Assembly (NCBI GenBank): GCA_028068195.1
Contig: JAPTTX010000030.1
Coordinates: forward strand, 26,231 to 90,230
Origin: Gammaproteobacteria bacterium
GTDB lineage: Bacteria > Pseudomonadota > Gammaproteobacteria > Acidiferrobacterales > UBA6901
Length of the DNA: 64,000 bases
Reading direction: 5' to 3'
The notes below the pieces were generated by a model. The model did not search any database and was not told the origin of the DNA. It saw only the letters and a program-made list of their open reading frames with translations. The position numbers were made by a program, and so were the translations under genes. Positions 37,904-56,776 of the stretch are shown in pieces (the first letter of the stretch is position 1; every line of letters begins with the position of its first letter).

Positions 37904-38989
37904 CTAATCCGCCTTCCGACCGGGCCCGGTCCGATCATCGGACTCGCCCCGCTTCTGCAACCGGGCGGCGCCGTTCAATCTCTTGCCGAGGCCGGCCGCG
38001 GTGCCTTCCAGCGCCACGTTGAACCCGTGGCGCTTCCAGCCCACCATGCCGTCGCCAACGAGCAATGCCTGGGTGAAGCCCGCCGCACGCAGCAGTTCCA
38101 CGGCTTTCCCGGACATGCGGTTGGTGCGGCAGATGACGGCGAGCGGGTATTCCCGCCGCTGCTCGAGCTCGAGCAAACGCCGCGGCAGGTCATCGAGCGG
38201 GATATTGATCGAGCCGGCGATGTGGCCGAGATCACCGGTAAAGTCCGCGACCGGCCGTACGTCTAACACCGGGAGTTCTTCGTTCCGGTCGAGACGTTGC
38301 TTGAGTTCAGCGCTCGAAATTGTCCCGGTGGGCGCACCGGGCCTGGCGCGAAGCCGCTTTAGCAGGTTTGGCAGGAAGGCGGCAATGCCGATCAGCGTTA
38401 TTGCCATCAGCCCCTTATGGATCAGGCCCTGGCCGCCGGATGCAGCTTCCCGGCCGGCATAGCCGAGATAGGTGTAGGCGAGCGCCCCGGGAAGCATGAA
38501 CACATAAGTGCCGACCACGTAAGCCAGCAGACCGATGCGGGTGAGTCCCAGCGCATAGTTGAGCAGATTGAACGGGAACAGAGGCACCAGGCGCACAAAC
38601 GCGACGAAGCGCCAGCCCTCCTGCTCCACGCCCTGAATGAGCTGCCTGGTCCAGCCGCCGGCGCGGCGATGTATCCAGCCGGATGCCAGGTAGCGCGCAA
38701 CCAGAAATGCAATTGTGGCGCCGACAGTAGCGCCGGTGAGGCTGTACAATGTACCCCACACGGGCCCGAAGAGCGCGCCGCCCGCCAGTGACAGCACGGC
38801 GCCAGGCAGGAAGAGCACGGCCGCGGCGGCATATGCCGCCATGAAGAGGAACGGCGCGAAAGTGCCGCTGGCGGCGATGCGTGAGCGCAGCGCCGCTGTA
38901 TCGAGCCAGCCATGATGAAGGAATGCAATCGCGATCGCCGCCAAGAGCGCGGCAAAGAGGGCAGTGCGTGCAACGATCCGGCGTGTCAT
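37904..38989 (-). CDS. TVP38/TMEM64 (DedA-type) membrane protein fused to a C-terminal rhodanese domain
   Basis: The N-terminal multi-TM region has the SNARE-associated pattern. The C-terminal 'LPVLDVRP...GHIAGSINIP...AVICRTNRMSGKA' is rhodanese with an active-site Cys. There is an ATGA overlap with the upstream gene. Confidence 0.8.
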   Translation of the reverse strand: MTRRIVARTALFAALLAAIAIAFLHHGWLDTAALRSRIAASGTFAPFLFMAAYAAAAVLFLPGAVLSLAGGALFGPVWGTLYSLTGATVGATIAFLVARYLASGWIHRRAGGWTRQLIQGVEQEGWRFVAFVRLVPLFPFNLLNYALGLTRIGLLAYVVGTYVFMLPGALAYTYLGYAGREAASGGQGLIHKGLMAITLIGIAAFLPNLLKRLRARPGAPTGTISSAELKQRLDRNEELPVLDVRPVADFTGDLGHIAGSINIPLDDLPRRLLELEQRREYPLAVICRTNRMSGKAVELLRAAGFTQALLVGDGMVGWKRHGFNVALEGTAAGLGKRLNGAARLQKRGESDDRTGPGRKAD

Positions 38990-39837
38990 GAGGGACGGTT
39001 CCATGCGCGGCGGTTGATGGCGTAGCCGGTGATACGTCCGAGGAATGGCAGGACCAACATGCCCGGCAGGTCGTTCACGAGCCTCGGCGCGCGGTAATCC
39101 CGGATGCCGAGGGTCATGGCCTCGTGGCCGGCGTCGGGCTGCGCCATGTAGGTGCCGAGCAGCCGGTCCCAGAGCGAGAGGTTGAAGCCGAAGTTGCTGT
39201 TCGCCTCTCGGTCCTCGACCGAATGATGCACCCGGTGCATGTCGGGGGTGACGATGAACAGGCGCAACGCGCGATCAAGCGCGATCGGCAGACGCAGGTT
39301 GCCGTGGTTGAACATGGCCGTCGCATTCAATACCACCTCGAAGATCACCACCGCCACGGCCGGCGCACCGATGACCGCGATGACCGCGAATTTGATGAGC
39401 ATCGATAGCAGGATCTCGATCGGATGAAAACGCGCACCGGTCGTGACGTCATAGTCGAGGTCGGCGTGGTGCATGCGGTGCAGCCGCCAGAGGATAGGCA
39501 CGGCATGAAACATGACGTGCTGCAGGTAGATGGCAAGATCAAGGATGACGATCGACCCGAGGACGGCGACCCAGAAGGGTGCTGCGACCAGGTTGAAGAG
39601 GCCCCAACCATGGGCTGTCGCGCTCATCGCGCAGCCCACCGCGGCTGCCGGGAACAGCAGCCGCAACACAACGCTGTTGAGGAACACGATCCCGAGGTTG
39701 CTGGTCCAGCGGCGTACCCTCGACACACTGAGTGTCCGCCTCGGCGCCGCCAGCTCGAGGAATATCATAACGATCAATACCCCGAAAAATGCCCCCAGCC
39801 GGATAACCTGCGCCTGATCCATGATTATTTCCGACAT
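38986..39837 (-). CDS. Fatty acid hydroxylase / sterol desaturase superfamily membrane di-iron oxygenase
   Basis: His boxes 'HVMFH', 'HRMHHAD' and 'HRVHHS' are present. GGAG lies 7 nt upstream of the ATG at 39837. Confidence 0.85.
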   Translation of the reverse strand: MSEIIMDQAQVIRLGAFFGVLIVMIFLELAAPRRTLSVSRVRRWTSNLGIVFLNSVVLRLLFPAAAVGCAMSATAHGWGLFNLVAAPFWVAVLGSIVILDLAIYLQHVMFHAVPILWRLHRMHHADLDYDVTTGARFHPIEILLSMLIKFAVIAVIGAPAVAVVIFEVVLNATAMFNHGNLRLPIALDRALRLFIVTPDMHRVHHSVEDREANSNFGFNLSLWDRLLGTYMAQPDAGHEAMTLGIRDYRAPRLVNDLPGMLVLPFLGRITGYAINRRAWNRPS

Positions 39838-39895
39838 AAAGATCTCCAAACTTGGAAAGAATACGCGATCGATTGGTAATGCGGCGGCCGATCTG

Positions 39896-39925
39896 CTAGT
39901 ATTCAATAATTCAATTGAATACTAG
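39896..39925. promoter_or_regulatory. Perfect 12-6-12 inverted repeat, candidate ArsR-family operator
   Basis: CTAGTATTCAAT-aattca-ATTGAATACTAG lies in the 104-nt divergent intergenic region between the hydroxylase gene and the ArsR-rhodanese gene. Confidence 0.55.
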
Positions 39926-39941
39926 TTATATCGTGAGCGTC

Positions 39942-40616
39942 ATGTCAAGCCCGGATGTGAAGCAACGGCTCTACGGCGAGATCGCCCGGATCGGGAAAGC
40001 AGTGTGTCATGGCTACCGCCTGGAGTTGCTGGAGTACCTTGCGCAAGGGGAGCGGACCGTAGAGTCACTAGCCAGGCTCGCAGGTCTTTCGGTTGCGAAC
40101 ACCTCCCAGCATCTTCGCAGCCTGCGCCAAGGCGGGCTGGTATCCGCGCGCAAGGATGGCCAGTACGTGTACTACATGCTGGCGGACGACGAAGTCATCC
40201 GCCTGCTCGCGAGCATGCGCAAACTGGCCGAAGCACACCTTGCGGAAGTCGAGCGGCTGGTCCGCTCCTACCTGACCGTCAAGGACGATCTCGAGCCCGT
40301 CCCGCGCGCCGAGTTGCTCGACCGTGCACGGCAAGGGCTCGTGACCGTCGTGGATGTTCGACCCGAAGAAGAATATGCGTCCGGCCACGTTCCGGGCGCC
40401 ATGAATTTGCCGATCAGGAATCTTGAGCAGAAACTCCGGGATTTGCCACATGACCAGGAAATCGTCGCCTATTGCCGCGGCCCGCACTGCGTGCTCGCCT
40501 ATGACGCGGTAGCGCGGCTGCGTCGGGAGGGGTTCCAGGCGCGGCGCCTGGAGGGTGGCTTCCCGGAATGGCGTGAAGCGGGCATGCCGGTGGAAATCGC
40601 AAGTTCCAGGAAATGA
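39942..40616 (+). CDS. ArsR/SmtB-family transcriptional regulator fused to a rhodanese domain
   Basis: Winged HTH 'RLELLEYLAQGERTVESLARLAGLSVANTSQHLRSLRQGGLV'. The C-terminal rhodanese domain is 'VVDVRPEEEYASGHVPGAMNLP...AYCRGPHC'. The ATG at 39942 is preferred because the TTG at 39915 sits inside the palindrome. Confidence 0.85.
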   Translation: MSSPDVKQRLYGEIARIGKAVCHGYRLELLEYLAQGERTVESLARLAGLSVANTSQHLRSLRQGGLVSARKDGQYVYYMLADDEVIRLLASMRKLAEAHLAEVERLVRSYLTVKDDLEPVPRAELLDRARQGLVTVVDVRPEEEYASGHVPGAMNLPIRNLEQKLRDLPHDQEIVAYCRGPHCVLAYDAVARLRREGFQARRLEGGFPEWREAGMPVEIASSRK

Positions 40617-40719
40617 ACGTGCCGCGAGCGTTGGGCGTAAGCCCGGGCACGCTGCTGTCCCAGGCGGCAGGACTCTTGAGCGGATATAAATGGTGGGATG
40701 CTTATCGGCAAGCAGCGAC

Positions 40720-41322
40720 ATGCATTCGAACCCAGTTTTTTCACGCCTTGCCATTGCGTTTCTCGCAGCAAGCCTGCTGCTCGGCTGGGTTCCCGCAGCT
40801 GCGGGCTCAGCGGGTCCGCAGCTGGCCCGGCGCTGGTCGCTTGTGACGCCCGAAGGGCTGGCGGTAGAGTTTGTCCAGCGTCCCCTGGACCTGACCGAGG
40901 CGTTCTTCCAGGGGCGCGGCTTCACTCCCGCCGTATCGCGGCAAATCGCCAATGCCTGCGTGCTGGCGGTCGTTGTCAGTAATCGCTCGGCTTCGACGAT
41001 CTTCCGGGTCGATCTCGGCGATTGGCGGGTACAGGGGCGGGACGTTCGGCCGCAGCAGCTGCGCCTCGACGCCGACTGGCAGCGAGCATGGAAGAGAATG
41101 CGGATCGCGCGGGCACAAAGGATTGCCTTCCGGTACGCTATGCTGCCGACCCGGCAAGTGCTTCGACCGGGGGACCGGTTGCAGGGAATGATCACTACCA
41201 ACCTCAGCACAGGCCAGCGCTTCGATATGAACATCCGGTGGGAGGCAAACGGCGAGCCCGGACAGGCCTGGCTGCGCGGTCTGGCCTGTGCGATGCCGTC
41301 ACAGCGGGGAAATCGGCCATGA
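40720..41322 (+). CDS. Secreted hypothetical protein
   Basis: Signal peptide 'MHSNPVFSRLAIAFLAASLLLGWVPAAAG'. The stop overlaps the tlpA-like start (ATGA). Confidence 0.55.
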   Translation: MHSNPVFSRLAIAFLAASLLLGWVPAAAGSAGPQLARRWSLVTPEGLAVEFVQRPLDLTEAFFQGRGFTPAVSRQIANACVLAVVVSNRSASTIFRVDLGDWRVQGRDVRPQQLRLDADWQRAWKRMRIARAQRIAFRYAMLPTRQVLRPGDRLQGMITTNLSTGQRFDMNIRWEANGEPGQAWLRGLACAMPSQRGNRP

Positions 41323-41876
41323 TAGCCCGTTATGTCGCGGCCCTAGCGGCGGCGGTTTGGCTGACAGCCGTGCCCGGCTCCTCTGCCGCCGTGGTAGGTC
41401 CGAATGCACAGCCCGTCGCCGCAAATTTCTCGCTCAAGGATCTCAACGGGAAGGTGCGCCGGCTCTCCGATTACCGTGGCAAGCTGGTCATCGTCAACTT
41501 CTGGGCGACATGGTGTCCGCCTTGCGAACGGGAGATACCATCGATGGAGCGAACGTATCGGAAATTCAAACATCGCGGCCTTGTGATTCTGGGCATCGAG
41601 GAAGGTGAGGGCTGGGAGACGGTGGAGCCGGTGGCAGAGCAGATGAAAATCACCTACCCGGTTCTGCTCGATCGTGATGCGTCGGTCAGCCGCAGGTACA
41701 AAATTATCGGGCTGCCTACCAGTTATCTGATCGATCCACGGGGACGCATCGTCGATGTTCTGGTCGGCGGCAGAAACTGGACGAACCCAGGTCTTCGTGC
41801 CCGCCTCGCCCGGCTGTTGCCGGGTCCGTCCCGGGAGCGCGCAGGGCTCCACGCCAAACCGCCACGCCGACCCTGA
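41319..41876 (+). CDS. TlpA/ResA-family periplasmic thiol:disulfide oxidoreductase
   Basis: Signal/anchor sequence plus 'VNFWATWCPPCEREIP' (thioredoxin CxxC). Confidence 0.85.
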   Translation: MIARYVAALAAAVWLTAVPGSSAAVVGPNAQPVAANFSLKDLNGKVRRLSDYRGKLVIVNFWATWCPPCEREIPSMERTYRKFKHRGLVILGIEEGEGWETVEPVAEQMKITYPVLLDRDASVSRRYKIIGLPTSYLIDPRGRIVDVLVGGRNWTNPGLRARLARLLPGPSRERAGLHAKPPRRP

Positions 41877-42089
41877 CCCGCCCAGGTTCGCATCCGCCCG
41901 GCCCCGGGTTGCCGCGCCGGCTCATTGTCACGATTTCCCCGATATGTGGATGGCCCGCCTCACCCGCGACCTGTCGGACGGCTTCGGCGTCGGCCCGCCA
42001 CGTGCCTGCAGCAGGGACAGACTCCAGCGCCTCCCCGGTCCTCTCCCGGTCTTTGCTATAACTATCGGTATACGGAACAATAAAAAGAC

Positions 42090-45000
42090 ATGTCCTCCTC
42101 GGTCGAAGTCATCATCATAGGAGCCGGACCCGCTGGGGTTTCGGCGGCGCTGCGACTGGCGCGTGCTGGTGTATCCGTGATGCTGATCGAGGGCGCGGAG
42201 TATGCCGGCGCGGAGAACTGGTCCGGCTGCGTCTACCATGCCGAAGGCCTGCTGCGTGAAGATGTGCTGGGGCAGGAGCTGTGGCGTCAGGCACCGAAGG
42301 AGCGCCGCATTATTGGCCGCAGCCTGTTCCTGCATGACGGCATCAACGCGGGCGGATTCGAGGCGCGGGCCCATGCCGGCAATGATTTTGGCGAGGCGTG
42401 GACGGTCCTGCGTCCCAAGCTCGACCGCTGGCTGGCAAGCCGCGCCGTCGACTTCGGCGTTACGCTGATCACTGCCACGACCGCAACCGGCCTACGCTAT
42501 CGCGGGGACCGCGTCATTGGTGTCAATACTGACCGCGGACCGATCAGCGCCGATGTGGTATTTATCGCGGAAGGCGATGCGGCCGGGCTCCTGGCCCGTG
42601 AAGGGCTGGAGCGGAGCCGGAATCCGCATTACGCCCAGGGCATCATGGCGCTATTCCGTCTGTCGCCGGCGGAGATTGAGAGGCGCTTCCGGCTGAATCC
42701 TGGAGAGGGGGTGGCGCAGGAATGGATGGTGCGTAACGGCCAGTTTGCCGGCCGCACGGTTCGGGTCAACATGACTGCCTTCCTGTACACGAACGAGGAC
42801 TCTCTGTCCCTGGGCCTGGTGCTTCCGCTCGAGCGCCTCGCGCAAGAGGCGGTTGCCGATCATCCGCACCTGTTCGAGCGCGTACGCAAGCTGCCCGTCA
42901 TTGCATCGTACCTCGAAGGCGCACAGCAGATCGCCTATGGTGCCAAGGTGATCCGCTCCGGCGGAATTGACGAGACTCCGCAATGGGTGCGGGACGGGCT
43001 GGCTGTCGGCGGCGGCAGCCTCGGCCTGGGACAGGAGGTGCCCTATCCAAACTTCATCGCCCCCGCCATTACCAGCGCCCTGACTTTTGCTGACGCGGTT
43101 TTGCGCATTCGCGGCAAGGGGGCTGACTACACCCGTGCGGAGCTGGAAATCGAGTACGCCGAGGCCCTGCGCCGAACCACAGATTTTCGAAACGCCACGC
43201 TGATACGGCGCTGGCCGCGCGCGATTCATGGCGGGCCAGCCCTGTTCGACCACCTGCCTGCCATTCTGGGCCAGATGATAGATGCTAGCCATCTGGCGCC
43301 CAGTGCGGCGCGCGCTCAGCGGCGGCGCGCGTTGGGCGTGGAGCTGGCCCGCTTGCGCCGCGATTCCGCCCAGCTGCTGCGCCTGGCGCGCGGTTTTGGC
43401 CCGCGCCTGCATGCGGACCAAGCGGCACCGCCCCTGCACGTGCAATTCCTGGTGGCCCGCGCTGGCGCCAAGCCGGCCCCGGCCGCATCCCAAGAGGATC
43501 CTCTGATGGCGCTGGCCGGTGAGGTGATCGGCCATTTCTACGGTCGGCGGCTACCGGCATTCGCCGACCGTGTGGCGATGGTCTGGCGCAGCATGGCGCG
43601 CCTGCCGCTTTTGGTGCCTCGGGTGGCGGGTCTGGGACTAAGTGCGCTCTATGGCGGCGCGGCGCTGCTCGGCGACCTCGCGGCGTATCGCATGGGCCAC
43701 GTGCGCCTGCGGGCACTGCAGCAGCGACCCTATTACCGCTATGACGAAAGCGCGCGCATCGGGCTCGACTGGGGCGATGCACGCCGAAGCGCCGCATCGC
43801 CAACGACCTGGATCGCCCCGCTCGTGCGTTATCGGCCCGACCTGCGGCATGTGACCGTTTCCCTGGACCTGGGCGCTACTGCCAAGCAGCTGCGCAACGT
43901 CTGTCCGGCAGAGGTCTATGGTCTGGCCGGCCAATTCGGCGGTGTATCGAGCCAGCACGAAAACTGCATAAAGTGCGAATCCTGTCGCGTGACTGTGCCC
44001 GGCGTGGACTGGAACCGAACCAGTGGCCACCGGTTTGCCTACCGCGTGCCGGGAGACGGGCGCAGTGGCCCGGATTCCTCCGTGACCTCGACGCTCGATC
44101 CGCTTCCGGAAAAGCCGCTGATCCTGGCCGAATCCGAGGGCAGCCGCTGGCAGCGTCTGTACCAGTCGCTGCGGGCACGGCCGTCGACGGTGAGCGCGGA
44201 ATGGCCACGTGTATGGGCGGGGCTCCTGAAGGAGATGTCCGATAGTGAGCTGACACGCCCGACAGTCGTGCGCCTCGAGTCCTGGCTGCAGCGCCATGCC
44301 TACGGTTGGATGGAAGCCGAAGTGCGCGCGCTGCTTGAGCAGGCGCACATGGTACCCGCCGACTGGCCCAGCGTGCGTACCAGGCAGTCGCACGCCCTCC
44401 TGCGCAGCATCCACGGTTGGGAGCGGCTGAAGGAGGATTTTCCGGAAAAAAAACTCAAGGCGCTCGCACTTACGACCTGGGACCCCGGTAGCCGGCGCGT
44501 GCTCCACGCCTGGATCGCCGCGGCCCGCAGCCACCGCGTGGCTGCCGTGGAGTGGCTGGCTGCCTGGTCGGGTGCCCTGGCATGGATCACTGCCGGGCAC
44601 TACCTGGCCGAAGCCGTCGCCGGACACCCGATCACGGATGTCCTGGCTGCACCACTGTGGCGTGAGCAAGACGGGGCTTCAAACTGGATACCGGCTGTCG
44701 CCGAGCAGCTTATCGATGCCCGCGGCGATGTCTGGCCCGCCGGCGAAATTATCGCGCACGGTGCCGGCGCCGACGCCGCCCAGCCCGTGCGCCGACGTGT
44801 CGACAAGGGTCTAGGCGAATTCTGTGCGACGACCGTGGTTGCCGAGTTGATCCTGGCGCTGGCGCGTGGACAGGCGGCGGTTTTGCGCCGCAGAGCGCTG
44901 GACTATGCCTCCGCGCGCGTGCAGTTCCGTGGCGACCTACGCGACAGCGAGGGGCGCGAGAGCATCGCCAAATTCGGTGCCGTGAAACAGATGCTGGCAG

Positions 45001-52863: not shown

Positions 52864-54600
52864 ATGCGGATTTCGGTCGCCGCGCACACGACTTTGTCAC
52901 AGATGTTCCTGGCGCGTATCGAGGATACGCCGCATAAGCCGGCCTACCGCCAGTATTACCCCGATCCCGGCGCCCTCCGGGACACCAGCCGCGGCCATTG
53001 GCGGGATATCACCTGGGAACAGGCGGGGCATGAAGTGGGACGCTGGCGGGCGGCACTGCGTAGCGAGGGGCTCAGGCCCGGAGACCGGGTGGCGCTGTGT
53101 ATGCGAAACCGGGTCGAGTGGGTCCTGTTTGATCAGGCGGCCCTAGGCCTCGGGCTGGTCGTGGTGCCGCTGTTCTACAATGACAGGCCAGACAACATGG
53201 CCTGGTGCATGAATGATGCTGGCGTGCGCCTTTTGCTCCTGGAGGACGGCCAGCTGTGGCGCGTCCTGCACAACCAGGTGCCGATGCTGGCGCGTGTAGT
53301 CTGTATCCACAGCGCCCCGGCGGACGATGGCACCGCAGTTGCGGTATCCTCCTGGCTACCGGCGCAGGGCGAGTCGCTGGATCCCGGTCCCGCGCGCGCC
53401 GCAGACTTGGCAACCCTGGTCTACACCTCGGGCACAACCGGGCGGCCGAAAGGTGTGATGCTGAGTCACCGCAATGTCGCAAGCAACGTCAGCGCCAGCC
53501 TCGATGCCGTGCCTACCGTAAATGCGGATGACATCTTCCTGTCCTTCCTGCCGCTGTCGCACATGTTCGAACGTACTGTCGGTTATTATCTGTCTCTCTG
53601 CATCGGAGCCCGCACCGTTTTTGCGCGCGGTATACCGGAACTGTCGGAAGATTTGCTGAGCCAGCGTCCGACGGTGCTAGTATGCGTACCGCGCATCTTC
53701 GAGCGCATCTACGCGCGCATGCAGGAGAGCCTGCCGCCATACTCGCTCCGGCGCCGTCTTTTCGATTTGTCGGTGGACATCGGGTGGCGGCGGTTTACTG
53801 GGCAGGTGCGGGTCCGAGACAGACTGCTGTGGCCCGTGCTTGACATACTCGTTGCACGCAAACTGCGACAACGCCTCGGGGGGCGCATGCGGCTGGCAGT
53901 CTCGGGCGCTGCTGCGCTCGCGCCACAGCTGTCGCGCACATTTCTGGGGCTCGGATTGCCTCTGCTCCAGGGGTATGGCCTTACCGAGTTTTCGCCCGTC
54001 GTGAGCTGCAACCGCCTCGGTGACAACGACCCCTTGTCGGTTGGACGACCGGTCACCGGAATCGAGGCCAGAACCCTCGACAACGGCGAACTTGTGGTGC
54101 GCGGTCCGGCAGTAATGCTCGGTTACTGGAACAATACGGCCGCCACATCCGCCGTGATCGACGGCGACGGCTGGTTGCATACGGGAGATATTGCGCGCAT
54201 CGAAGGCGGGCGAATTTATATCGTCGGACGTGCCAAGGAGATTATCGTGCTCAGCAATGGCGAGAAAGTGCCGCCGGCGGATGCCGAACAGATGATCATG
54301 CTCGATCCGATCTTCCAGCAGGTAATGGTGGTGGGTGAAGGCCGTCCCCATCTGGGTCTTCTGGTAGTGAGCGCGCTTGCCGACGAACGCGCCCTGTGCC
54401 AGAGAGCCAATGACCAGCTTCGGTCCTTTCCGGGATATGCGCGTGTGCGCCACATTGCGCGAATCTCCGAGCCGTGGACGGTCGAGAATCATCTGCTCAC
54501 GCCGACGCTTAAGCTGCGCAGGAACAAGATCGAAGAGCGTTTTTCCAGGGAAATCGAGGAAATGTACCGCGATCGGGATCTATGCCACGACTCCCGGTGA
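52864..54600 (+). CDS. Long-chain acyl-CoA synthetase (AMP-forming)
   Basis: 'LVYTSGTTGRPKGVMLSHRN' is the AMP-binding motif. 'GYGLTE' and 'GWLHTGDIA' are present. The gene starts 3 nt after the fadJ stop. Confidence 0.9.
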   Translation: MRISVAAHTTLSQMFLARIEDTPHKPAYRQYYPDPGALRDTSRGHWRDITWEQAGHEVGRWRAALRSEGLRPGDRVALCMRNRVEWVLFDQAALGLGLVVVPLFYNDRPDNMAWCMNDAGVRLLLLEDGQLWRVLHNQVPMLARVVCIHSAPADDGTAVAVSSWLPAQGESLDPGPARAADLATLVYTSGTTGRPKGVMLSHRNVASNVSASLDAVPTVNADDIFLSFLPLSHMFERTVGYYLSLCIGARTVFARGIPELSEDLLSQRPTVLVCVPRIFERIYARMQESLPPYSLRRRLFDLSVDIGWRRFTGQVRVRDRLLWPVLDILVARKLRQRLGGRMRLAVSGAAALAPQLSRTFLGLGLPLLQGYGLTEFSPVVSCNRLGDNDPLSVGRPVTGIEARTLDNGELVVRGPAVMLGYWNNTAATSAVIDGDGWLHTGDIARIEGGRIYIVGRAKEIIVLSNGEKVPPADAEQMIMLDPIFQQVMVVGEGRPHLGLLVVSALADERALCQRANDQLRSFPGYARVRHIARISEPWTVENHLLTPTLKLRRNKIEERFSREIEEMYRDRDLCHDSR

Positions 54601-54635
54601 AGCGGGTGCCTGAAATTAGGATGCCGCCGGGCGGC

Positions 54636-55616
54636 TCAGTCTGCATCGTGGTTTCGCGCGGATTCGCGAAACATCATCTGGTGCCGCACCAGCTCCGCCT
54701 GGTCCAGCAGGAATACGCTTTCGTCGCCGCTGCGCGTGCAAAGCCACAGGAACGGCACGCGCGGAAAGCGTTGTTCCAGCGCCTCGCGGCTGTTTCCCAC
54801 TTCCACGACCAAGATTCCGCCGGGCGCGAGGTGCTCATCGGCTTGCGCTAGAATGCGGGCGATCGCATCGAGACCATCGGGTCCCGAGGCGAGCGCGAGC
54901 CCCGGTTCGTGGCGGTACTCCTCCGGCAGCGACGCCAGCTCACCGGCCGGTACGTATGGCGGATTGCTGACGATGAGGTCATATCGTTCTCCGGCAAGAC
55001 TGCCAAACAGGTCTGAACGTACCAGGCGTATCCTTCCCTCCAGGCTGTAGGCGGCGACGTTGATCCGGGCCACCTCCAGGGCGTCCACCGAAACATCCGC
55101 CGCATCCAGCGTTGCGTGTGGGAAGGCCTTCGCAACTGCTACCGCGATGCAGCCACTGCCGGTACACAGGTCCAGCGCCCGGCGCACATTGACTGCCTCG
55201 ATCCACGGCTGGAATTGTTCCAGGACGAATTCTCCGATCAGGGATCGCGGCACGATGACGCGTTCGTCCACGTAAAATCTGAGGCCCGCGAACCATGCCT
55301 CACGCAACAGGTATGCCGCCGGCTTGCGCGTGCTGATGCGCATTTCAACGATCCGCCGCGCAGCGGCAACGCGGGAAGGATCCGCAATGCGATCGAGTTC
55401 GCTGTCGAGGTCGGCCGGCGCCACGCCGATAGCCGAGCCAACGAGCCACGCTGCCTCATCGAGGGCGTTGTCGGTACCGTGTCCGTATGCGACGCCAGCC
55501 TTGAGCAGCTGGCGTTCACTCCAAAGCACCAGCTGGCGCACGGTTGTAGATTGCCGGTGGGATCGTGTGCTCATGACGAGCGCGGATTGTACGGCATCGG
55601 CCGGTGGGTTTGCCAT
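54636..55616 (-). CDS. prmB: Ribosomal protein L3 N5-glutamine methyltransferase
   Basis: 'DLCTGSGCIAVA' is the SAM motif, and 'IVSNPPYVP' (NPPY) is present with a PrmB-type N-terminal domain. The start could instead be the internal ATG at 55574. Confidence 0.85.
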   Translation of the reverse strand: MANPPADAVQSALVMSTRSHRQSTTVRQLVLWSERQLLKAGVAYGHGTDNALDEAAWLVGSAIGVAPADLDSELDRIADPSRVAAARRIVEMRISTRKPAAYLLREAWFAGLRFYVDERVIVPRSLIGEFVLEQFQPWIEAVNVRRALDLCTGSGCIAVAVAKAFPHATLDAADVSVDALEVARINVAAYSLEGRIRLVRSDLFGSLAGERYDLIVSNPPYVPAGELASLPEEYRHEPGLALASGPDGLDAIARILAQADEHLAPGGILVVEVGNSREALEQRFPRVPFLWLCTRSGDESVFLLDQAELVRHQMMFRESARNHDAD

Positions 55617-55708
55617 TGCGGTGTCCTCTCAAAGCTGCTGAAATTCCTTCCGACCGCGCCCAATCAGGCTGCGGGCGTAGCGGGTGGTTACCATAGGGGG
55701 CGCATTCG

Positions 55709-56776
55709 ATGAGCGAGCTGTTTTCGTTTTTGGAGTTACGTGGATTGCGGTTAAAGAACCGCATCTTCGTTTCACCCATGTGTCAGTACTCGGCGCCAGA
55801 GGGGCTCGCCAACTCCTGGCATCTGGTGCACCTTGGCAGTCGTGCGGTCGGTGGTGCAGCCCTGGTTATGACAGAAGCCGCGGCAGTAAGCCCGGCTGGC
55901 CGCATTTCGCCGCAGGACCTCGGAATCTGGTCGCGGTCGCACGCCGACGCGCTAGCCCCGGTTGCACGCTTTATCAGTGAGCACGGTGCGGTGCCTGCCA
56001 TACAGCTTGCGCATGCCGGGCGCAAGGCGTCGACCGATGAACCGTGGCGGGGGGGCGGACCGGTGCGCCCGGACGGAGGCGGGTGGCAGCCCCTGGCGCC
56101 CAGCCCGGTATCCTTTGCGCCGAATTCACCGGTACCCGCAGCGCTCACCATCGCCGATATCGACCGCGTTGTCGGAGAGTTTGCCGATGCGGCGCGCCTC
56201 AGCCTGCACGCCGGATTCAGGGTAGCGGAAATACACATGGCGCATGGCTACCTGCTGCATGAATTTTTGTCGCCGATCAGCAACCGGCGGGACGACGAAT
56301 ATGGTGGCAGCCTGGATAACCGGATGCGGTTCCCGTTGCGCGTCGCACGCGCAGTGCGTGAGGCGTGGCCCGAGGACCTGCCGGTGTTCGTGCGCATATC
56401 CGCCACGGACTGGGTCGATGGCGGATGGGATCTTGGCCAGTCGATACAGTTGGCGCTCCGCCTCAAAAGGGCCGGAATCGACTTCATTGACTGTTCCAGC
56501 GGCGGTCTGGTGCCGGACGCGCGAGTTCCCGCAGGTCCTGGATTCCAGGTTCCGTTTGCGACCGCGGTCAAGAGCGGGGCCGGGATTTCCGTCGGCGCGG
56601 TGGGGCTAGTTACTGGCGCATTCCAGGCCGAGCAGATTGTCGCGACCGGCCTCGCTGATGCGGTACTGCTCGCGCGGCAACTGTTGCGCGATCCGTATTG
56701 GCCGCTGCATGCTGCGCGTTCCCTTGGTGTCGATCTGCCTTGGCCGGTGCAGTACGAGAGGGCGAAGCTTCGCTGA
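55709..56776 (+). CDS. NADH:flavin oxidoreductase, Old Yellow Enzyme family (NamA/YqjM-like)
   Basis: 'LKNRIFVSPMCQYS', 'IQLAHAGRKAS' and 'EIHMAHGYLLHEFLSP' are OYE hallmarks. Confidence 0.9.
   Translation: MSELFSFLELRGLRLKNRIFVSPMCQYSAPEGLANSWHLVHLGSRAVGGAALVMTEAAAVSPAGRISPQDLGIWSRSHADALAPVARFISEHGAVPAIQLAHAGRKASTDEPWRGGGPVRPDGGGWQPLAPSPVSFAPNSPVPAALTIADIDRVVGEFADAARLSLHAGFRVAEIHMAHGYLLHEFLSPISNRRDDEYGGSLDNRMRFPLRVARAVREAWPEDLPVFVRISATDWVDGGWDLGQSIQLALRLKRAGIDFIDCSSGGLVPDARVPAGPGFQVPFATAVKSGAGISVGAVGLVTGAFQAEQIVATGLADAVLLARQLLRDPYWPLHAARSLGVDLPWPVQYERAKLR

What the first reader, a model, noticed from the sequence alone, without database searches (positions are those of the whole stretch)
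42090..54600. Compact four-gene operon resembling the E. coli anaerobic beta-oxidation set (ydiO/ydiQRST + fadI + fadJ + fadK) collapsed into one unit
Seen in the sequence:
- The giant fusion gene is followed by a FadI-type thiolase 126 nt downstream.
- The FadJ-type hydratase/dehydrogenase overlaps the fadI stop (ATGA).
- The acyl-CoA synthetase starts 3 nt after the fadJ stop.
- All four genes are on the plus strand.
- The operon is preceded by a locally AT-rich stretch with an imperfect palindrome (TATAACTATCGGTATA, about 42056-42071) and no obvious SD.

Established knowledge: in E. coli, anaerobic fatty-acid degradation uses FadI/FadJ, FadK (YdiD) and the ydiO/ydiQRST products. These are encoded at separate loci as separate proteins.

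Inference: this locus encodes every step of a beta-oxidation cycle (activation, dehydrogenation with its own electron outlet, hydration/oxidation, thiolysis) as one transcription unit. That suggests a dedicated, possibly low-oxygen or reverse-running (chain-elongating) pathway.
Basis: partly seen in the sequence, partly recalled or inferred. Interest (0 to 1): 0.6.

Follow-up and report, generated by a model that had tools for sequence, protein, structure and literature searches.

The report
Beta-oxidation operon with fused electron chain
This is a real, conserved four-gene fatty-acid breakdown operon whose first gene fuses the acyl-CoA dehydrogenase, its electron carrier and the enzyme that passes electrons to quinone into one 2,434-residue protein that I could not find described in the literature.

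Summary
Four tightly packed plus-strand genes span 42090-54600: a 2,434-aa ORF, a thiolase, a hydratase/dehydrogenase and an acyl-CoA ligase.

The giant ORF reads, in order: FixC/YdiS-like flavoprotein, FixX/YdiT-like 4-Cys iron-sulfur motif, a degenerate ACAD-like module, a VLCAD-like acyl-CoA dehydrogenase with its catalytic Glu, then EtfB-like and EtfA-like modules. It is a conserved family of about 2,270-2,890 aa found in metagenome-assembled genomes of at least eight lineages.

The same four-gene order recurs in 10 Acidiferrobacter-like loci. Elsewhere the giant gene usually stands alone.

The link to the E. coli anaerobic set is only a domain-level analogy:
- The thiolase and alpha subunit are only marginally closer to FadI/FadJ than to FadA/FadB.
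- The ligase is not FadK-like, and the ACAD is not YdiO-like.
- The arginine required for ETF electron bifurcation is absent.

The best reading is an oxidative, quinone-linked beta-oxidation module. I found no evidence that it is reversed or specific to anaerobic growth. The upstream "palindrome" is at chance level; the conserved block there looks like a promoter. Co-transcription could not be tested. I rate it a new variant of a known kind, of moderate to high interest.

The parts
42053..42089 (+). Conserved AT-rich upstream block (CTTTGCTATAACTA-N5-ATACGGAAcAATAAAA), a putative promoter and leader. Two readings fit: an extended -10 (TGcTATAAC, 42055-42062) with a leader of about 20 nt lacking an SD, or TTGCTA-17-AACAAT giving a near-leaderless mRNA.
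   Evidence: This is the only alignable part of the intergenic region among the window, L001 and L012. The Acidiferrobacter clade has TATACT plus AGGAGG at the same place. GC is 32.5% and there is no SD. The promoter assignment is an inference.
42090..43289 (+). Giant gene, residues 1-400: FixC/YdiS-like FAD quinone-reductase domain (GAGPAG at residues 11-16).
   Evidence: NCBIfam PRK10015 (2.9e-42) and FixC PRK10157 (4.8e-40) are the best hits, both below full-length cut-offs. PDB sequence match to 7koe_C FixC at 1.7e-22. BLASTP to E. coli YdiS: 29% over 396 aa, E 2e-36. The AF2 model's best Foldseek hit is 7koe_C (E 3e-22, TM 0.80); second is porcine ETF-QO 2gmh.
43290..43859 (+). Residues 401-590: helical extension and linker with one moderately hydrophobic stretch (residues 512-530). 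No transmembrane helix is predicted.
   Evidence: The highest Kyte-Doolittle 19-residue mean in this segment is 1.40, and the highest anywhere in the protein is 1.65. The AF2 model is helical here with pLDDT of about 75-89. Conservation across the family is low.
43860..44069 (+). Residues 591-660: FixX/YdiT-like ferredoxin motif VCPAxVY-x15-C-IK-C-ES-C (Cys605, 626, 629, 632), a putative single [4Fe-4S] site.
   Evidence: The four cysteines, P606, V609, Y610 and W641 are invariant in 27 diverse homologues. The pattern is the same as in E. coli YdiT: CPAGLY...CLECGTC. AF2 confidence here is low. BLASTP to YdiT finds no hit.
44187..45224 (+). Residues ~700-1045: degenerate ACAD-like module (pseudo-ACAD). 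It has an ACAD-like helical/beta/helical layout but lacks the YEGT catalytic-Glu motif (YRDAILFSQWPG instead).
   Evidence: Profile A2 against PDB matches only ACADs (1buc 7e-8, 2z1q 9e-7, VLCAD 2e-6). The motifs RVQF and AGQxFGGxAYSE are invariant. An exhaustive HMMER search finds only 72 cluster representatives; about half are 1,800-2,900 aa proteins and the rest are shorter, apparently fragments. AF2 pLDDT is about 80-90.
45447..47219 (+). Residues ~1120-1710: catalytic acyl-CoA dehydrogenase of VLCAD type, with large insertions in the N-terminal and beta domains. The catalytic base is Glu1695 in the invariant IYEGTNE.
   Evidence: Pfam Acyl-CoA_dh_M 5e-15 and Acyl-CoA_dh_1 1.4e-14. PDB best match is human VLCAD 3b96/2uxw at about 6e-30. 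Invariant residues are listed. Foldseek top hits are VLCAD, ACAD9, 2z1q and 3owa.
47262..47624 (+). Residues ~1725-1845: helical C-terminal extension of the ACAD, as in the VLCAD/ACAD9 subgroup.
   Evidence: The AF2 model has helices at model residues 1035-1152. Foldseek alignments to 554-589-residue VLCAD chains span 740-790 columns with target TM 0.66-0.73.
47658..48389 (+). Residues ~1857-2100: EtfB-like module (ETF domain III), strongly diverged.
   Evidence: Profile A3 positions 17-254 match EtfB chains: CarD 6fah_B 1.6e-25, 4kpu_B 8e-24, human ETF-beta 1.3e-17. It is not detected with the single sequence.
48447..49394 (+). Residues ~2120-2434: EtfA-like module. Domain I is diverged with a deleted loop where bifurcating ETFs carry TRPxFGGN. 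Domain II has an intact ET-FAD site (R2332, QIGQTG 2346-2351, SGAPQH 2365-2370). Stop codon at 49392-49394.
   Evidence: Pfam ETF_alpha at 62 bits against a cut-off of 27. Profile A3 matches CarE at 1.3e-38, FixB 7koe_B at 5.5e-38 and human ETF-alpha at 1.2e-33. Column inspection is and invariant residues.
49395..49520 (+). 126-nt spacer with an AGGAGG SD at 49510-49515.
   Evidence: No terminator or promoter match. The fold is no more stable than shuffles, z +1.4. Only the SD and start are conserved with L001, L012 and L014. No Rfam family matches.
49521..50819 (+). 3-ketoacyl-CoA thiolase (432 aa), of FadI/TFE-beta length class, NCBIfam PRK08170.
   Evidence: Pfam Thiolase_N and Thiolase_C. 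NF006030 scores 650.8 against a cut-off of 593; the FadI models are below cut-off. PDB best is E. coli FadI 8bnu_A at 267 bits. BLASTP: FadI 37% (246 bits) against FadA 36% (198 bits).
50816..52861 (+). Multifunctional enoyl-CoA hydratase / 3-hydroxyacyl-CoA dehydrogenase (681 aa), a TFE alpha subunit. Its start overlaps the thiolase stop (ATGA).
   Evidence: Pfam ECH_1, 3HCDH_N and 3HCDH. FadJ models are the best hits but below cut-off. PDB: FadJ 8bnu_C/6ysv 395 bits > human TFP-alpha 359 > EcFadB 350. BLASTP: FadJ 35% (372 bits) against FadB 33% (332 bits).
52864..54600 (+). AMP-forming acyl-CoA synthetase (578 aa), long-chain ACSL/FadD11-like. It starts 2 nt after the alpha-subunit stop.
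   Evidence: Pfam AMP-binding 2.7e-78 plus AMP-binding_C_3. NCBIfam best hits are FadD11 and PRK06187; PRK06087, the model whose product name matches the MG1655 annotation of FadK, scores 140 against a cut-off of 736. BLASTP: FadD 128 bits against FadK 118 bits.

Best explanation
This is a dedicated, oxidatively running fatty-acid beta-oxidation operon. It belongs to an Acidiferrobacterales-like gammaproteobacterium from mine drainage.

Proposed pathway:
1. The last gene, a long-chain-type AMP-forming ligase, activates a free fatty acid to acyl-CoA.
2. The first gene encodes a single-chain acyl-CoA:quinone oxidoreductase. Its VLCAD-like ACAD module (catalytic Glu1695) makes the 2-enoyl-CoA.
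3. Electrons pass to the ET-FAD of the ETF module tethered in the same chain. They then pass through the FixX-like [4Fe-4S] site to the FixC-like FAD, and on to membrane quinone. This is the same high-potential path seen in EtfABCX.
4. The FadJ/FadB-type alpha subunit hydrates and oxidises the enoyl-CoA.
5. The FadI-length thiolase cleaves the product. The thiolase and alpha subunit probably form a trifunctional-enzyme complex.

The degenerate ACAD-like module in front of the true ACAD most likely takes the place of the second subunit of an ACAD dimer.

Shown here: gene order, domain identities, conserved cofactor and catalytic residues, synteny, and absence of the bifurcation arginine. Inferred: electron path, direction, quinone as acceptor, the pseudo-dimer, a single transcript, and the substrate chain length.
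For: - Domain identities.
- Invariant cofactor and catalytic residues across 27 homologues from several phyla: FAD GxGxxG, four FixX cysteines, IYEGTNE, ET-FAD motifs.
- AF2 models are confident: residues 690-1860 give pLDDT 81.8 and pTM 0.79; residues 20-700 give pTM 0.79. VLCAD and FixC (7koe_C, TM 0.80) are the top structural matches.
- The order giant-thiolase-alpha-ligase is kept in 10 loci whose giant proteins are only 42-74% identical, with overlapping or 1-2-nt junctions.
- In other phyla the giant gene is sometimes next to thiolase + alpha genes (L027, L041, L081).
- No terminator, promoter or Rfam signal lies between the genes. Each downstream gene has an SD.
- The Arg of TRPxFGGN (R140 in T. 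maritima, R146 in A. fermentans), whose mutation abolishes bifurcation (PMC10734219; PMC12042025), aligns to an unconserved Thr in the family and to a deleted loop in the window clade.
- The FeS clusters of EtfX lie on the path to quinone in EtfABCX (PMC10734219).
Against: - There are no expression or biochemical data. Metatranscriptome contigs from the same study gave nothing usable.
- EtfB-like and EtfA domain I are detectable only with a family profile, so they may be structural remnants.
- The FixX region is modelled with low confidence.
- No membrane anchor is evident, so quinone access is assumed by analogy with FixC/ETF-QO.
- The 126-nt spacer could hide an internal promoter.
- The rest of the genome was not available, so I could not check whether free ETF, ETF-QO or FadE genes also exist.
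- The pseudo-dimer idea rests on conserved motifs and my recollection of ACAD dimer contacts, not on inspected coordinates.
Confidence: 0.68

Rival explanations
1. The locus is the orthologous, fused counterpart of the E. coli anaerobic set (ydiO/ydiQRST + fadK + fadIJ) and serves beta-oxidation specifically under anoxic or low-oxygen conditions.
For: The N-terminal domain's best NCBIfam hits are the FAD-dependent-oxidoreductase subfamily model PRK10015 and FixC PRK10157, and it is 29% identical to YdiS by BLASTP. The FixX/YdiT cysteine motif is present. FadI and FadJ are the best solved-structure matches of the thiolase and alpha subunit.
Against: - All equivalog cut-offs are missed by wide margins.
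- The margin over FadA/FadB is small: 246 vs 198 bits and 372 vs 332 bits.
- Human mitochondrial TFP-alpha, an aerobic enzyme, scores nearly as well.
- The ACAD is VLCAD-like, not YdiO-like: 23% over 203 aa.
- The ligase is no closer to FadK than to FadD.
- The ETF lacks the bifurcation Arg typical of the Fix/Ydi group.
- Nothing in the sequence speaks to oxygen regulation.
Confidence: 0.1
2. The module runs in reverse, as chain elongation or enoyl-CoA reduction, or the ETF part is electron-bifurcating. In that case it would couple NADH, ferredoxin/flavodoxin and enoyl-CoA or quinone.
For: The top profile matches of the ETF part are bifurcating-type ETFs: CarE 1.3e-38 and FixB 5.5e-38, slightly better than human ETF-alpha at 1.2e-33. 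FixC/FixX partners are typical of bifurcating EtfABCX. Thiolase and the alpha subunit are reversible enzymes.
Against: - The arginine essential for bifurcation is missing, and the loop is deleted in this clade (PMC10734219).
- No ferredoxin, flavodoxin or thioesterase gene is in the conserved block.
- An ATP-consuming acyl-CoA ligase fits catabolic entry, not product release.
- From general redox knowledge, reduction of enoyl-CoA by ubiquinol is uphill.
Confidence: 0.07
3. The four genes are a beta-oxidation-type pathway for a special CoA thioester (branched, hydroxylated, isoprenoid-derived or dicarboxylic acids, or internal lipid turnover) rather than general fatty-acid catabolism.
For: - The closest relatives carry Acidiferrobacter/Acidiferrobacterales labels, and related giant genes occur in Nitrospirota and Leptospirillia genomes. 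From my own knowledge these groups are known mainly as chemolithoautotrophs.
- The ACAD has unusually large insertions.
- The ligase belongs to no characterised equivalog.
- A fatty-acid hydroxylase-family gene lies about 2 kb upstream on the other strand.
Against: The VLCAD/ACAD9 affinity, the ACSL-type ligase and the classical TFE pair are what one expects for straight long chains. The upstream hydroxylase gene is not part of the conserved block in L001 or L002.
Confidence: 0.15
4. The block is not one transcription unit. The giant gene and the thiolase-alpha-ligase trio are transcribed from separate promoters.
For: A 126-nt non-coding spacer lies before the thiolase in this clade, and 112 nt in L001. 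In most phyla the giant gene stands alone. One Acidiferrobacterales relative (L007) has no thiolase after it.
Against: No promoter-like or terminator-like site lies in the spacer, and it has no stable structure. In the sister clade the giant gene and the thiolase overlap by 8 nt. The order is conserved in 10 loci.
Confidence: 0.2

Closest known systems
E. coli ydiO-ydiQRST-fadK plus fadIJ (anaerobic beta-oxidation candidates)
   Same: The same list of functions is present: ACAD, EtfB/EtfA, FixC-like YdiS, FixX-like YdiT, acyl-CoA ligase, and a FadI/FadJ-type thiolase and alpha subunit. The YdiS-like domain is 29% identical. The CPAxxY...CxxCxxC motif is shared with YdiT.
   Different: E. coli has nine separate proteins at two loci; here there are four genes, five of the functions in one chain. 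The ACAD is VLCAD-like rather than YdiO-like. The ligase is not FadK-like. An extra pseudo-ACAD module is present. No NCBIfam cut-off is met for any named or E. coli-type model tested (FadI, FadJ, FixC, FixB, and the models I attribute to YdiS, YdiO, YdiR and FadK).
FixABCX / EtfABCX (T. maritima, PDB 7KOE)
   Same: The N-terminal domain is the best structural match to EtfC/FixC (TM 0.80). The EtfA part matches FixB at 5.5e-38. The cofactor chain ET-FAD -> FeS -> QR-FAD -> quinone is the proposed outlet (PMC10734219).
   Different: EtfABCX is a four-subunit NADH-oxidising, bifurcating enzyme with two [4Fe-4S] clusters. Here there is one chain, only four cysteines (one cluster), no R140 equivalent, and an ACAD as the electron source instead of NADH.
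Mitochondrial VLCAD - ETF - ETF-QO relay with the trifunctional protein (TFP alpha/beta)
   Same: The ACAD is VLCAD/ACAD9-like including the C-terminal extension. It has an ETF with one conserved ET-FAD site and an ETF-QO-type quinone reductase with a single 4-Cys cluster (2gmh is the second-best fold match). TFP alpha and beta score nearly as well as FadJ and FadI. The logic is non-bifurcating and oxidative.
   Different: In mitochondria these are three freely diffusing or membrane-bound proteins that serve many dehydrogenases. Here they are covalently linked and dedicated to one ACAD, and the quinone reductase is of the FixC/FixX type rather than canonical ETF-QO.
Stable ACAD-ETF complexes (Bcd-EtfAB of C. 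difficile 5OL2, CarCDE 6FAH)
   Same: An ACAD is held in permanent contact with its ETF. These chains are among the best sequence and fold matches.
   Different: Those are non-covalent, bifurcating and reductive (enoyl-CoA reduction with NADH and ferredoxin), and they lack a quinone reductase.
Monomeric fused EtfB-EtfA (SaETF, PMC12042025)
   Same: The module order EtfB then EtfA in one chain is the same.
   Different: SaETF is a 600-residue bifurcating ETF alone, with its partners encoded nearby as separate genes. Here the fusion also includes the ACAD and FixCX partners, and the bifurcation signature is missing.

Membership tests
FadI (E. coli anaerobic thiolase, NCBIfam equivalog) | Score at or above the curated cut-off of NF006516 (560) or TIGR02446 (711.55) | tested here: not met
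   Scores are 358.5 and 301.5 bits. The protein instead passes NF006030/PRK08170 (650.8 > 593). FadI is still the best solved-structure match. Identity is 37% against 36% for FadA.
FadJ (E. coli anaerobic alpha subunit, NCBIfam equivalog) | Score at or above the cut-off of NF008363 (869) or TIGR02440 (968) | tested here: not met
   Scores are 533.9 and 463.3 bits; the FadB model scores 461.8. BLASTP gives FadJ 372 bits against FadB 332 bits.
FadK (E. coli medium-chain acyl-CoA ligase) | Specific similarity to FadK above that to other acyl-CoA ligases | tested here: not met
   PRK06087, the model whose product name matches the MG1655 annotation of FadK, scores 139.8 against a cut-off of 736. 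BLASTP gives FadK 118 bits, below FadD at 128 bits. The best models are FadD11 and PRK06187.
YdiO-type ACAD | Closest ACAD relatives are YdiO/CaiA-like | tested here: not met
   BLASTP to YdiO gives 23% over 203 aa, E 2e-6. NF008997, which I recall to be the YdiO-type model, scores 28 bits against a cut-off of 537. The best matches are VLCAD, ACAD9 and Bacillus FadE.
Acyl-CoA dehydrogenase superfamily | Middle beta domain and C-terminal helical domain, with the catalytic Glu in the YEGT motif | tested here: met
   PF02770 scores 55.8 (> 33.3) and PF00441 scores 54.9 (> 22.4). IYEGTNE with Glu1695 is invariant in 27 sequences.
VLCAD/ACAD9 subgroup | An additional C-terminal helical domain of about 180 residues after the ACAD core | tested here: met
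   The AF2 model has helices after the core. Foldseek aligns 740-790 columns to full-length VLCAD/ACAD9 chains with target TM 0.66-0.73.
FixC/YdiS/ETF-QO flavoprotein quinone reductases | FixC-type FAD fold with the GxGxxG motif | tested here: met
   Foldseek best hit is 7koe_C at E 3e-22, TM 0.80, rmsd 3.4; second is 2gmh ETF-QO. G11, G13 and G16 are invariant. The full-length NCBIfam cut-offs are not reached (145 < 466), as expected for one domain of a fusion. Quinone binding itself is not testable here.
FixX/YdiT ferredoxin-like proteins | CPAxxY ... CxxCxxC cysteine set for a [4Fe-4S] cluster | tested here: met
   C605, C626, C629 and C632 are invariant and the pattern matches E. coli YdiT. 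Cluster content is not testable. No BLASTP hit was found because the motif is short.
Electron transfer flavoprotein (EtfB + EtfA) | Three-domain ETF with an ET-FAD-binding domain II | tested here: met
   PF00766 scores 62.2 (> 27). The family profile matches EtfB chains (1.6e-25) and full-length EtfA chains (1.3e-38) in the order B then A. R2332, QIGQTG and SGAPQH are conserved.
Bifurcating (group 2) ETF | Conserved Arg of the TRPxFGGN loop that bonds N5 of the Bf-FAD (R140 in T. maritima, R146 in A. fermentans) | tested here: not met
   The Arg aligns to an unconserved 't' in the family profile. The window clade has a deletion of about 12 residues there, and no listed sequence has an Arg immediately before the PAFGG-like motif where that motif is recognisable. 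The functional role of the Arg is taken from PMC10734219 and PMC12042025.
Trifunctional enzyme (TFE/TFP) alpha-beta complex | Adjacent, translationally coupled genes for an ECH+HACD alpha subunit and a thiolase beta subunit; a physical complex | tested here: inconclusive
   Gene adjacency with the ATGA overlap is met and conserved. Complex formation cannot be tested with these tools.
Operon (single transcription unit) | One transcript spanning all four genes | not testable with these tools
   No terminator or promoter signal lies between the genes. Junctions are 126, -4 and 2 nt. RNA contigs from the same study did not cover the locus.

The most novel reading that the evidence does not exclude
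The 2,434-residue protein is a natural single-chain acyl-CoA:quinone oxidoreductase. The whole three-protein electron relay of beta-oxidation (ACAD -> ETF -> ETF:quinone oxidoreductase) is fused into one polypeptide. It includes a family-private pseudo-ACAD module that replaces the second subunit of the ACAD dimer. The family appears to be undescribed, although it occurs in Acidiferrobacterales, Nitrospirota, Leptospirillia, Verrucomicrobiota, Planctomycetota, Acidobacteriota, Gemmatimonadota and others.
Probability: 0.55. Interest if true: 0.72.

Novelty: new variant of a known kind. Interest (0 to 1): 0.6.

Why it matters
How ETF's mobile flavin domain shuttles between its dehydrogenase and the quinone reductase has had to be studied with transient, weakly bound complexes. 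A natural fusion of all three partners, with fixed stoichiometry, would be a ready-made object for cryo-EM and kinetics of the complete acyl-CoA-to-quinone path. It would also be a compact part for engineering beta-oxidation.

Ecologically, lineages labelled here as Acidiferrobacter, Nitrospirota and Leptospirillia, which I know mainly as chemolithoautotrophs, carry a self-contained fatty-acid oxidation module. This bears on lipid turnover or mixotrophy in mine drainage and similar habitats.

For annotation, these genes are currently labelled only 'acyl-CoA dehydrogenase family protein', 'FAD-binding protein' or 'ETF-QO'. Those labels hide the architecture.

Tried and rejected
- Palindrome as operator: 6 of 8 pairs, 1 observed against 1.2 expected in shuffles, and the symmetry is not conserved in L001 or L012. 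Rejected in favour of a conserved promoter/leader block.
- Consensus promoter/terminator scan of 41200-55800: 1 promoter-like and 7 terminator-like sites, both below the shuffle means, and none in the junctions.
- Spacer RNA structure: z +1.4. Rfam found no match.
- Transcript evidence: three metatranscriptome runs from the same mine-drainage study yielded only 20-60-nt chance pieces. This is uninformative, not negative.
- Transmembrane anchor: no 19-residue window exceeds 1.65 on the Kyte-Doolittle scale.
- Literature: six full-text searches found no description of an ACAD+ETF+FixCX fusion. The paper that defines the ETF groups is not in the held library.
It was redone with 15 admissible sequences.
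- The bifurcation Arg is also present in human canonical ETF at the same alignment position. Its presence would therefore not prove bifurcation; only its absence is informative.
- Assembly chimera was considered and rejected.

Full report
**1. Observation**

The region holds four plus-strand ORFs:
- 42090-49394, 2,434 aa
- 49521-50819, 432 aa
- 50816-52861, 681 aa from the ATG that overlaps the preceding stop
- 52864-54600, 578 aa

The block is bounded upstream by a peroxiredoxin-family gene ending at 41876. Downstream lies a convergent methyltransferase gene at 54636-55616.

The 40 nt before the giant ATG are 32.5% GC against 63.5% for the window, and they carry no SD. The other three genes have AGGAGG, GGGAGA and GGAG at normal spacing.

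The 'imperfect palindrome' is at 42057-42072. It has 6 of 8 pairs and is at chance level: 1 observed against 1.2 expected in shuffles.

DNA contigs of a mine-drainage metagenome run tile the region at about 37x with no differences from the window in the five longest pieces. The long ORF is therefore not an assembly artefact.

**2. The giant gene**

Single-sequence searches detect three parts:
- An N-terminal FAD oxidoreductase. Its best matches are the FAD-dependent-oxidoreductase model PRK10015 and FixC PRK10157.
- The ACAD middle and C-terminal domains at residues 1487-1707. Human VLCAD is the best solved relative, at about 6e-30.
- An ETF-alpha FAD domain at residues 2288-2371.

An alignment of 27 homologues sharing only 28-74% identity shows these invariant features:
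- the GxGxxG motif
- four cysteines in a VCPAxVY-x15-CxxCxxC motif (C605, C626, C629, C632), the same pattern as in E. coli YdiT
- the ACAD signature IYEGTNE with the catalytic Glu1695
- the ET-FAD motifs R2332, QIGQTG and SGAPQH

Profiles of the two 'dark' stretches resolved them.
- Residues about 700-1045 match only ACADs, weakly (7e-8 to 1e-5). They lack the YEGT Glu, so I call this a pseudo-ACAD.
- Residues 1840-2434 match EtfB chains (1.6e-25) followed by full-length EtfA chains (1.3e-38).

AlphaFold2 models agree with this picture.
- Residues 690-1860 give pLDDT 81.8 and pTM 0.79. The top structural matches are VLCAD, ACAD9 and the long bacterial ACADs 2z1q and 3owa.
- Residues 20-700 give pTM 0.79. 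The best match is FixC/EtfC of T. maritima EtfABCX (7koe_C, TM 0.80) and the second is porcine ETF-QO.

The architecture is therefore FixC - FixX - pseudo-ACAD - ACAD (VLCAD type) - EtfB - EtfA. No transmembrane helix is predicted.

**3. Family and context**

The word-indexed protein search returned 294 relatives. Nearly all of the 120 listed are 2,270-2,800 aa long. Sources name them only 'acyl-CoA dehydrogenase family protein', 'FAD-binding protein' or 'ETF-QO'.

A scan of one genome per species found at least 576 encoding stretches. The best 80 are almost all labelled metagenome-assembled genomes. They come from Acidiferrobacterales and other Proteobacteria, Verrucomicrobiota, Nitrospirota, Leptospirillia, Planctomycetota, Acidobacteriota, Gemmatimonadota, Lentisphaeraceae and an Alcaligenaceae MAG.

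The pseudo-ACAD segment was searched exhaustively against 1.84 billion cluster representatives. It hits only 72 proteins. About half are 1,800-2,900 aa and the rest are shorter, apparently fragments, so this module appears private to the family.

The closest relatives (73-74% identity) are unnamed 'Proteobacteria' or Acidiferrobacterales MAGs. The window itself is held by mine-drainage metagenome runs.

The order giant-thiolase-alpha-ligase is kept in 10 loci: L001, L002, L009, L011-L014 and L016-L018. Their giant proteins are 42-74% identical to the window's.
- In L001 the junctions are +112, -4 and +1 nt.
- In L002 they are -8, -1 and -11 nt, that is, overlapping.
- The convergent methyltransferase gene is conserved in seven of the ten loci (L001, L002, L012, L013, L016-L018).

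In Nitrospirota, Leptospirillia, Verrucomicrobiota and most other lineages the giant gene stands alone. A thiolase + alpha pair does lie next to it in L027, L041 and L081. An alpha-subunit gene without a detected thiolase lies within a few hundred bases in L064 and L074, and about 6 kb away in L005, where a thiolase gene follows it. One Acidiferrobacterales relative (L007, 59% identity) lacks the trio.

The repeated association with beta-oxidation genes supports the functional assignment. The four-gene operon is a feature of the Acidiferrobacter-like clade.

**4. The other three genes and the E. coli comparison**

I fetched the MG1655 reference loci. ydiF-ydiO, ydiP and ydiQRST-fadK are contiguous; fadIJ, fadBA and fadD are elsewhere.

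BLASTP results:

| Window protein | E. coli match | Identity | Score |
|---|---|---|---|
| Thiolase | FadI | 37% | 246 bits |
| Thiolase | FadA | 36% | 198 bits |
| Alpha subunit | FadJ | 35% | 372 bits |
| Alpha subunit | FadB | 33% | 332 bits |
| Ligase | FadD | 28% | 128 bits |
| Ligase | FadK | 26% | 118 bits |
| Giant | YdiS | 29% over 396 aa | E 2e-36 |
| Giant | YdiR | 28% over 234 aa | E 5e-17 |
| Giant | YdiO | 23% over 203 aa | E 2e-6 |
| Giant | YdiQ, YdiT | no hit | - |

NCBIfam cut-offs for FadI, FadJ, FixC and FixB, and for the models I attribute to YdiS, YdiO, YdiR and FadK, are all missed. The thiolase instead passes PRK08170 (650.8 > 593).

Among solved structures FadI and FadJ are the top hits, but human TFP beta and alpha are close behind. 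'FadI/FadJ-type' is therefore fair as a length and architecture class. It is not orthology, and the 'anaerobic' label does not transfer.

**5. Mechanism**

In T. maritima EtfABCX the FeS clusters of EtfX lie on the high-potential path ET-FAD -> FeS -> QR-FAD (EtfC) -> menaquinone. Arg140 of the TRPTFGGN loop is the key residue for bifurcation (PMC10734219). The same Arg is R146 in A. fermentans (PMC12042025).

In the giant family that position is an unconserved Thr in the profile. In the window clade the loop is deleted, and no listed sequence has an Arg at the position immediately before the PAFGG-like motif where that motif is recognisable. The ET-FAD site, by contrast, is intact.

I therefore read the protein as a non-bifurcating acyl-CoA:quinone oxidoreductase. 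The path would be ACAD-FAD -> ET-FAD -> [4Fe-4S] -> FixC-FAD -> quinone.

The operon would then cover a full cycle:
- the ACSL/FadD11-like ligase for entry
- the giant protein for dehydrogenation
- the alpha subunit for hydration and oxidation
- the thiolase for cleavage

Three points argue against a reversed or bifurcating role. The Arg is absent. The conserved block has no ferredoxin, flavodoxin or thioesterase gene. An ATP-spending ligase is present.

The pseudo-ACAD keeps the RVQF and AGQxFGG motifs. As I recall from MCAD structures, the equivalent residues reach across the dimer to the partner's FAD. This suggests an intramolecular pseudo-dimer, but it is an inference that I could not check on coordinates.

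**6. Regulation**

Only one block of the upstream intergenic region is conserved among the window, L001 and L012: CTTTGCTATAACTA-N5-ATACGGAAcAATAAAA, ending 2-5 nt before the ATG. It fits two readings:
- an extended -10 (TGcTATAAC) with a short A-rich leader lacking an SD
- TTGCTA-17-AACAAT giving a near-leaderless mRNA

The Acidiferrobacter clade has TATACT plus AGGAGG at the same place.

Between the genes there is no promoter, terminator, stable fold or Rfam match. RNA data from the same study did not cover the locus, so a single transcript remains unproven.

**7. Novelty**

Six full-text searches found no description of a fusion of ACAD, ETF and FixCX. The nearest is a fused EtfB-EtfA whose partners are encoded as separate genes (PMC12042025). 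The library is incomplete, so prior description elsewhere cannot be excluded.

I rate the finding as a new variant of a known kind. It is an ordinary beta-oxidation pathway in content, with an unusual and apparently uncharacterised single-chain electron relay, and an operon form specific to one clade.

Noticed in passing
window 44187-45224 (giant residues ~700-1045): A degenerate ACAD-like module sits in front of the true ACAD. It has invariant RVQF and AGQxFGGxAYSE motifs but no catalytic Glu. An exhaustive search finds it only in this family of giant proteins (72 cluster representatives).
   Followed up: partly
window 42053-42089; L001 ~8090-8126; L012 ~7964-8000: A conserved ~37-nt AT-rich block lies 2-5 nt before the start codon of a gene with no Shine-Dalgarno. 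This suggests a leaderless or A-rich-leader mode of initiation for the first gene only.
   Followed up: partly
L004 and L006 (Nitrospirae/Leptospirillia loci), 8001-16019: In these lineages the stand-alone giant gene keeps the same neighbours: upstream obg and an amino-acid-kinase/PUA gene (probably proB), ATP synthase genes further upstream, and cbb3-type oxidase and pgi genes downstream. In L004 it is followed by TusA and a Pyr_redox_2 gene.
   Followed up: no
window 34062-36477 (- strand): A radical-SAM protein with DUF3641 (from memory, the pattern of arsenosugar-synthesis ArsS) lies next to a 471-aa pyridine-nucleotide-disulfide oxidoreductase. This may be relevant to metal or metalloid handling in mine drainage.
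   Followed up: no
window 37904-41234 (- strand): A VTT-domain/rhodanese fusion protein, a fatty-acid hydroxylase-family protein and a 388-aa ORF with no Pfam match lie just upstream of the operon. They are not part of the conserved block in L001 or L002.
   Followed up: partly
window 1789-6195 (+): A 1,468-aa PAS/GAF/GGDEF/EAL signalling protein. A second GGDEF protein lies at 28089-29441. UvrD, modC-like and GGDEF genes are syntenic with L001.
   Followed up: no
window 45746-45768 and 50984-51003: The metagenome run X1 carries minor-variant contigs with clustered substitutions inside the giant gene and the alpha-subunit gene. This indicates co-existing strains or close paralogues.
   Followed up: no
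locus list: Almost all of the best 80 genomic loci encoding the giant protein are labelled metagenome-assembled genomes, and no named cultured isolate appears among them.
   Followed up: no
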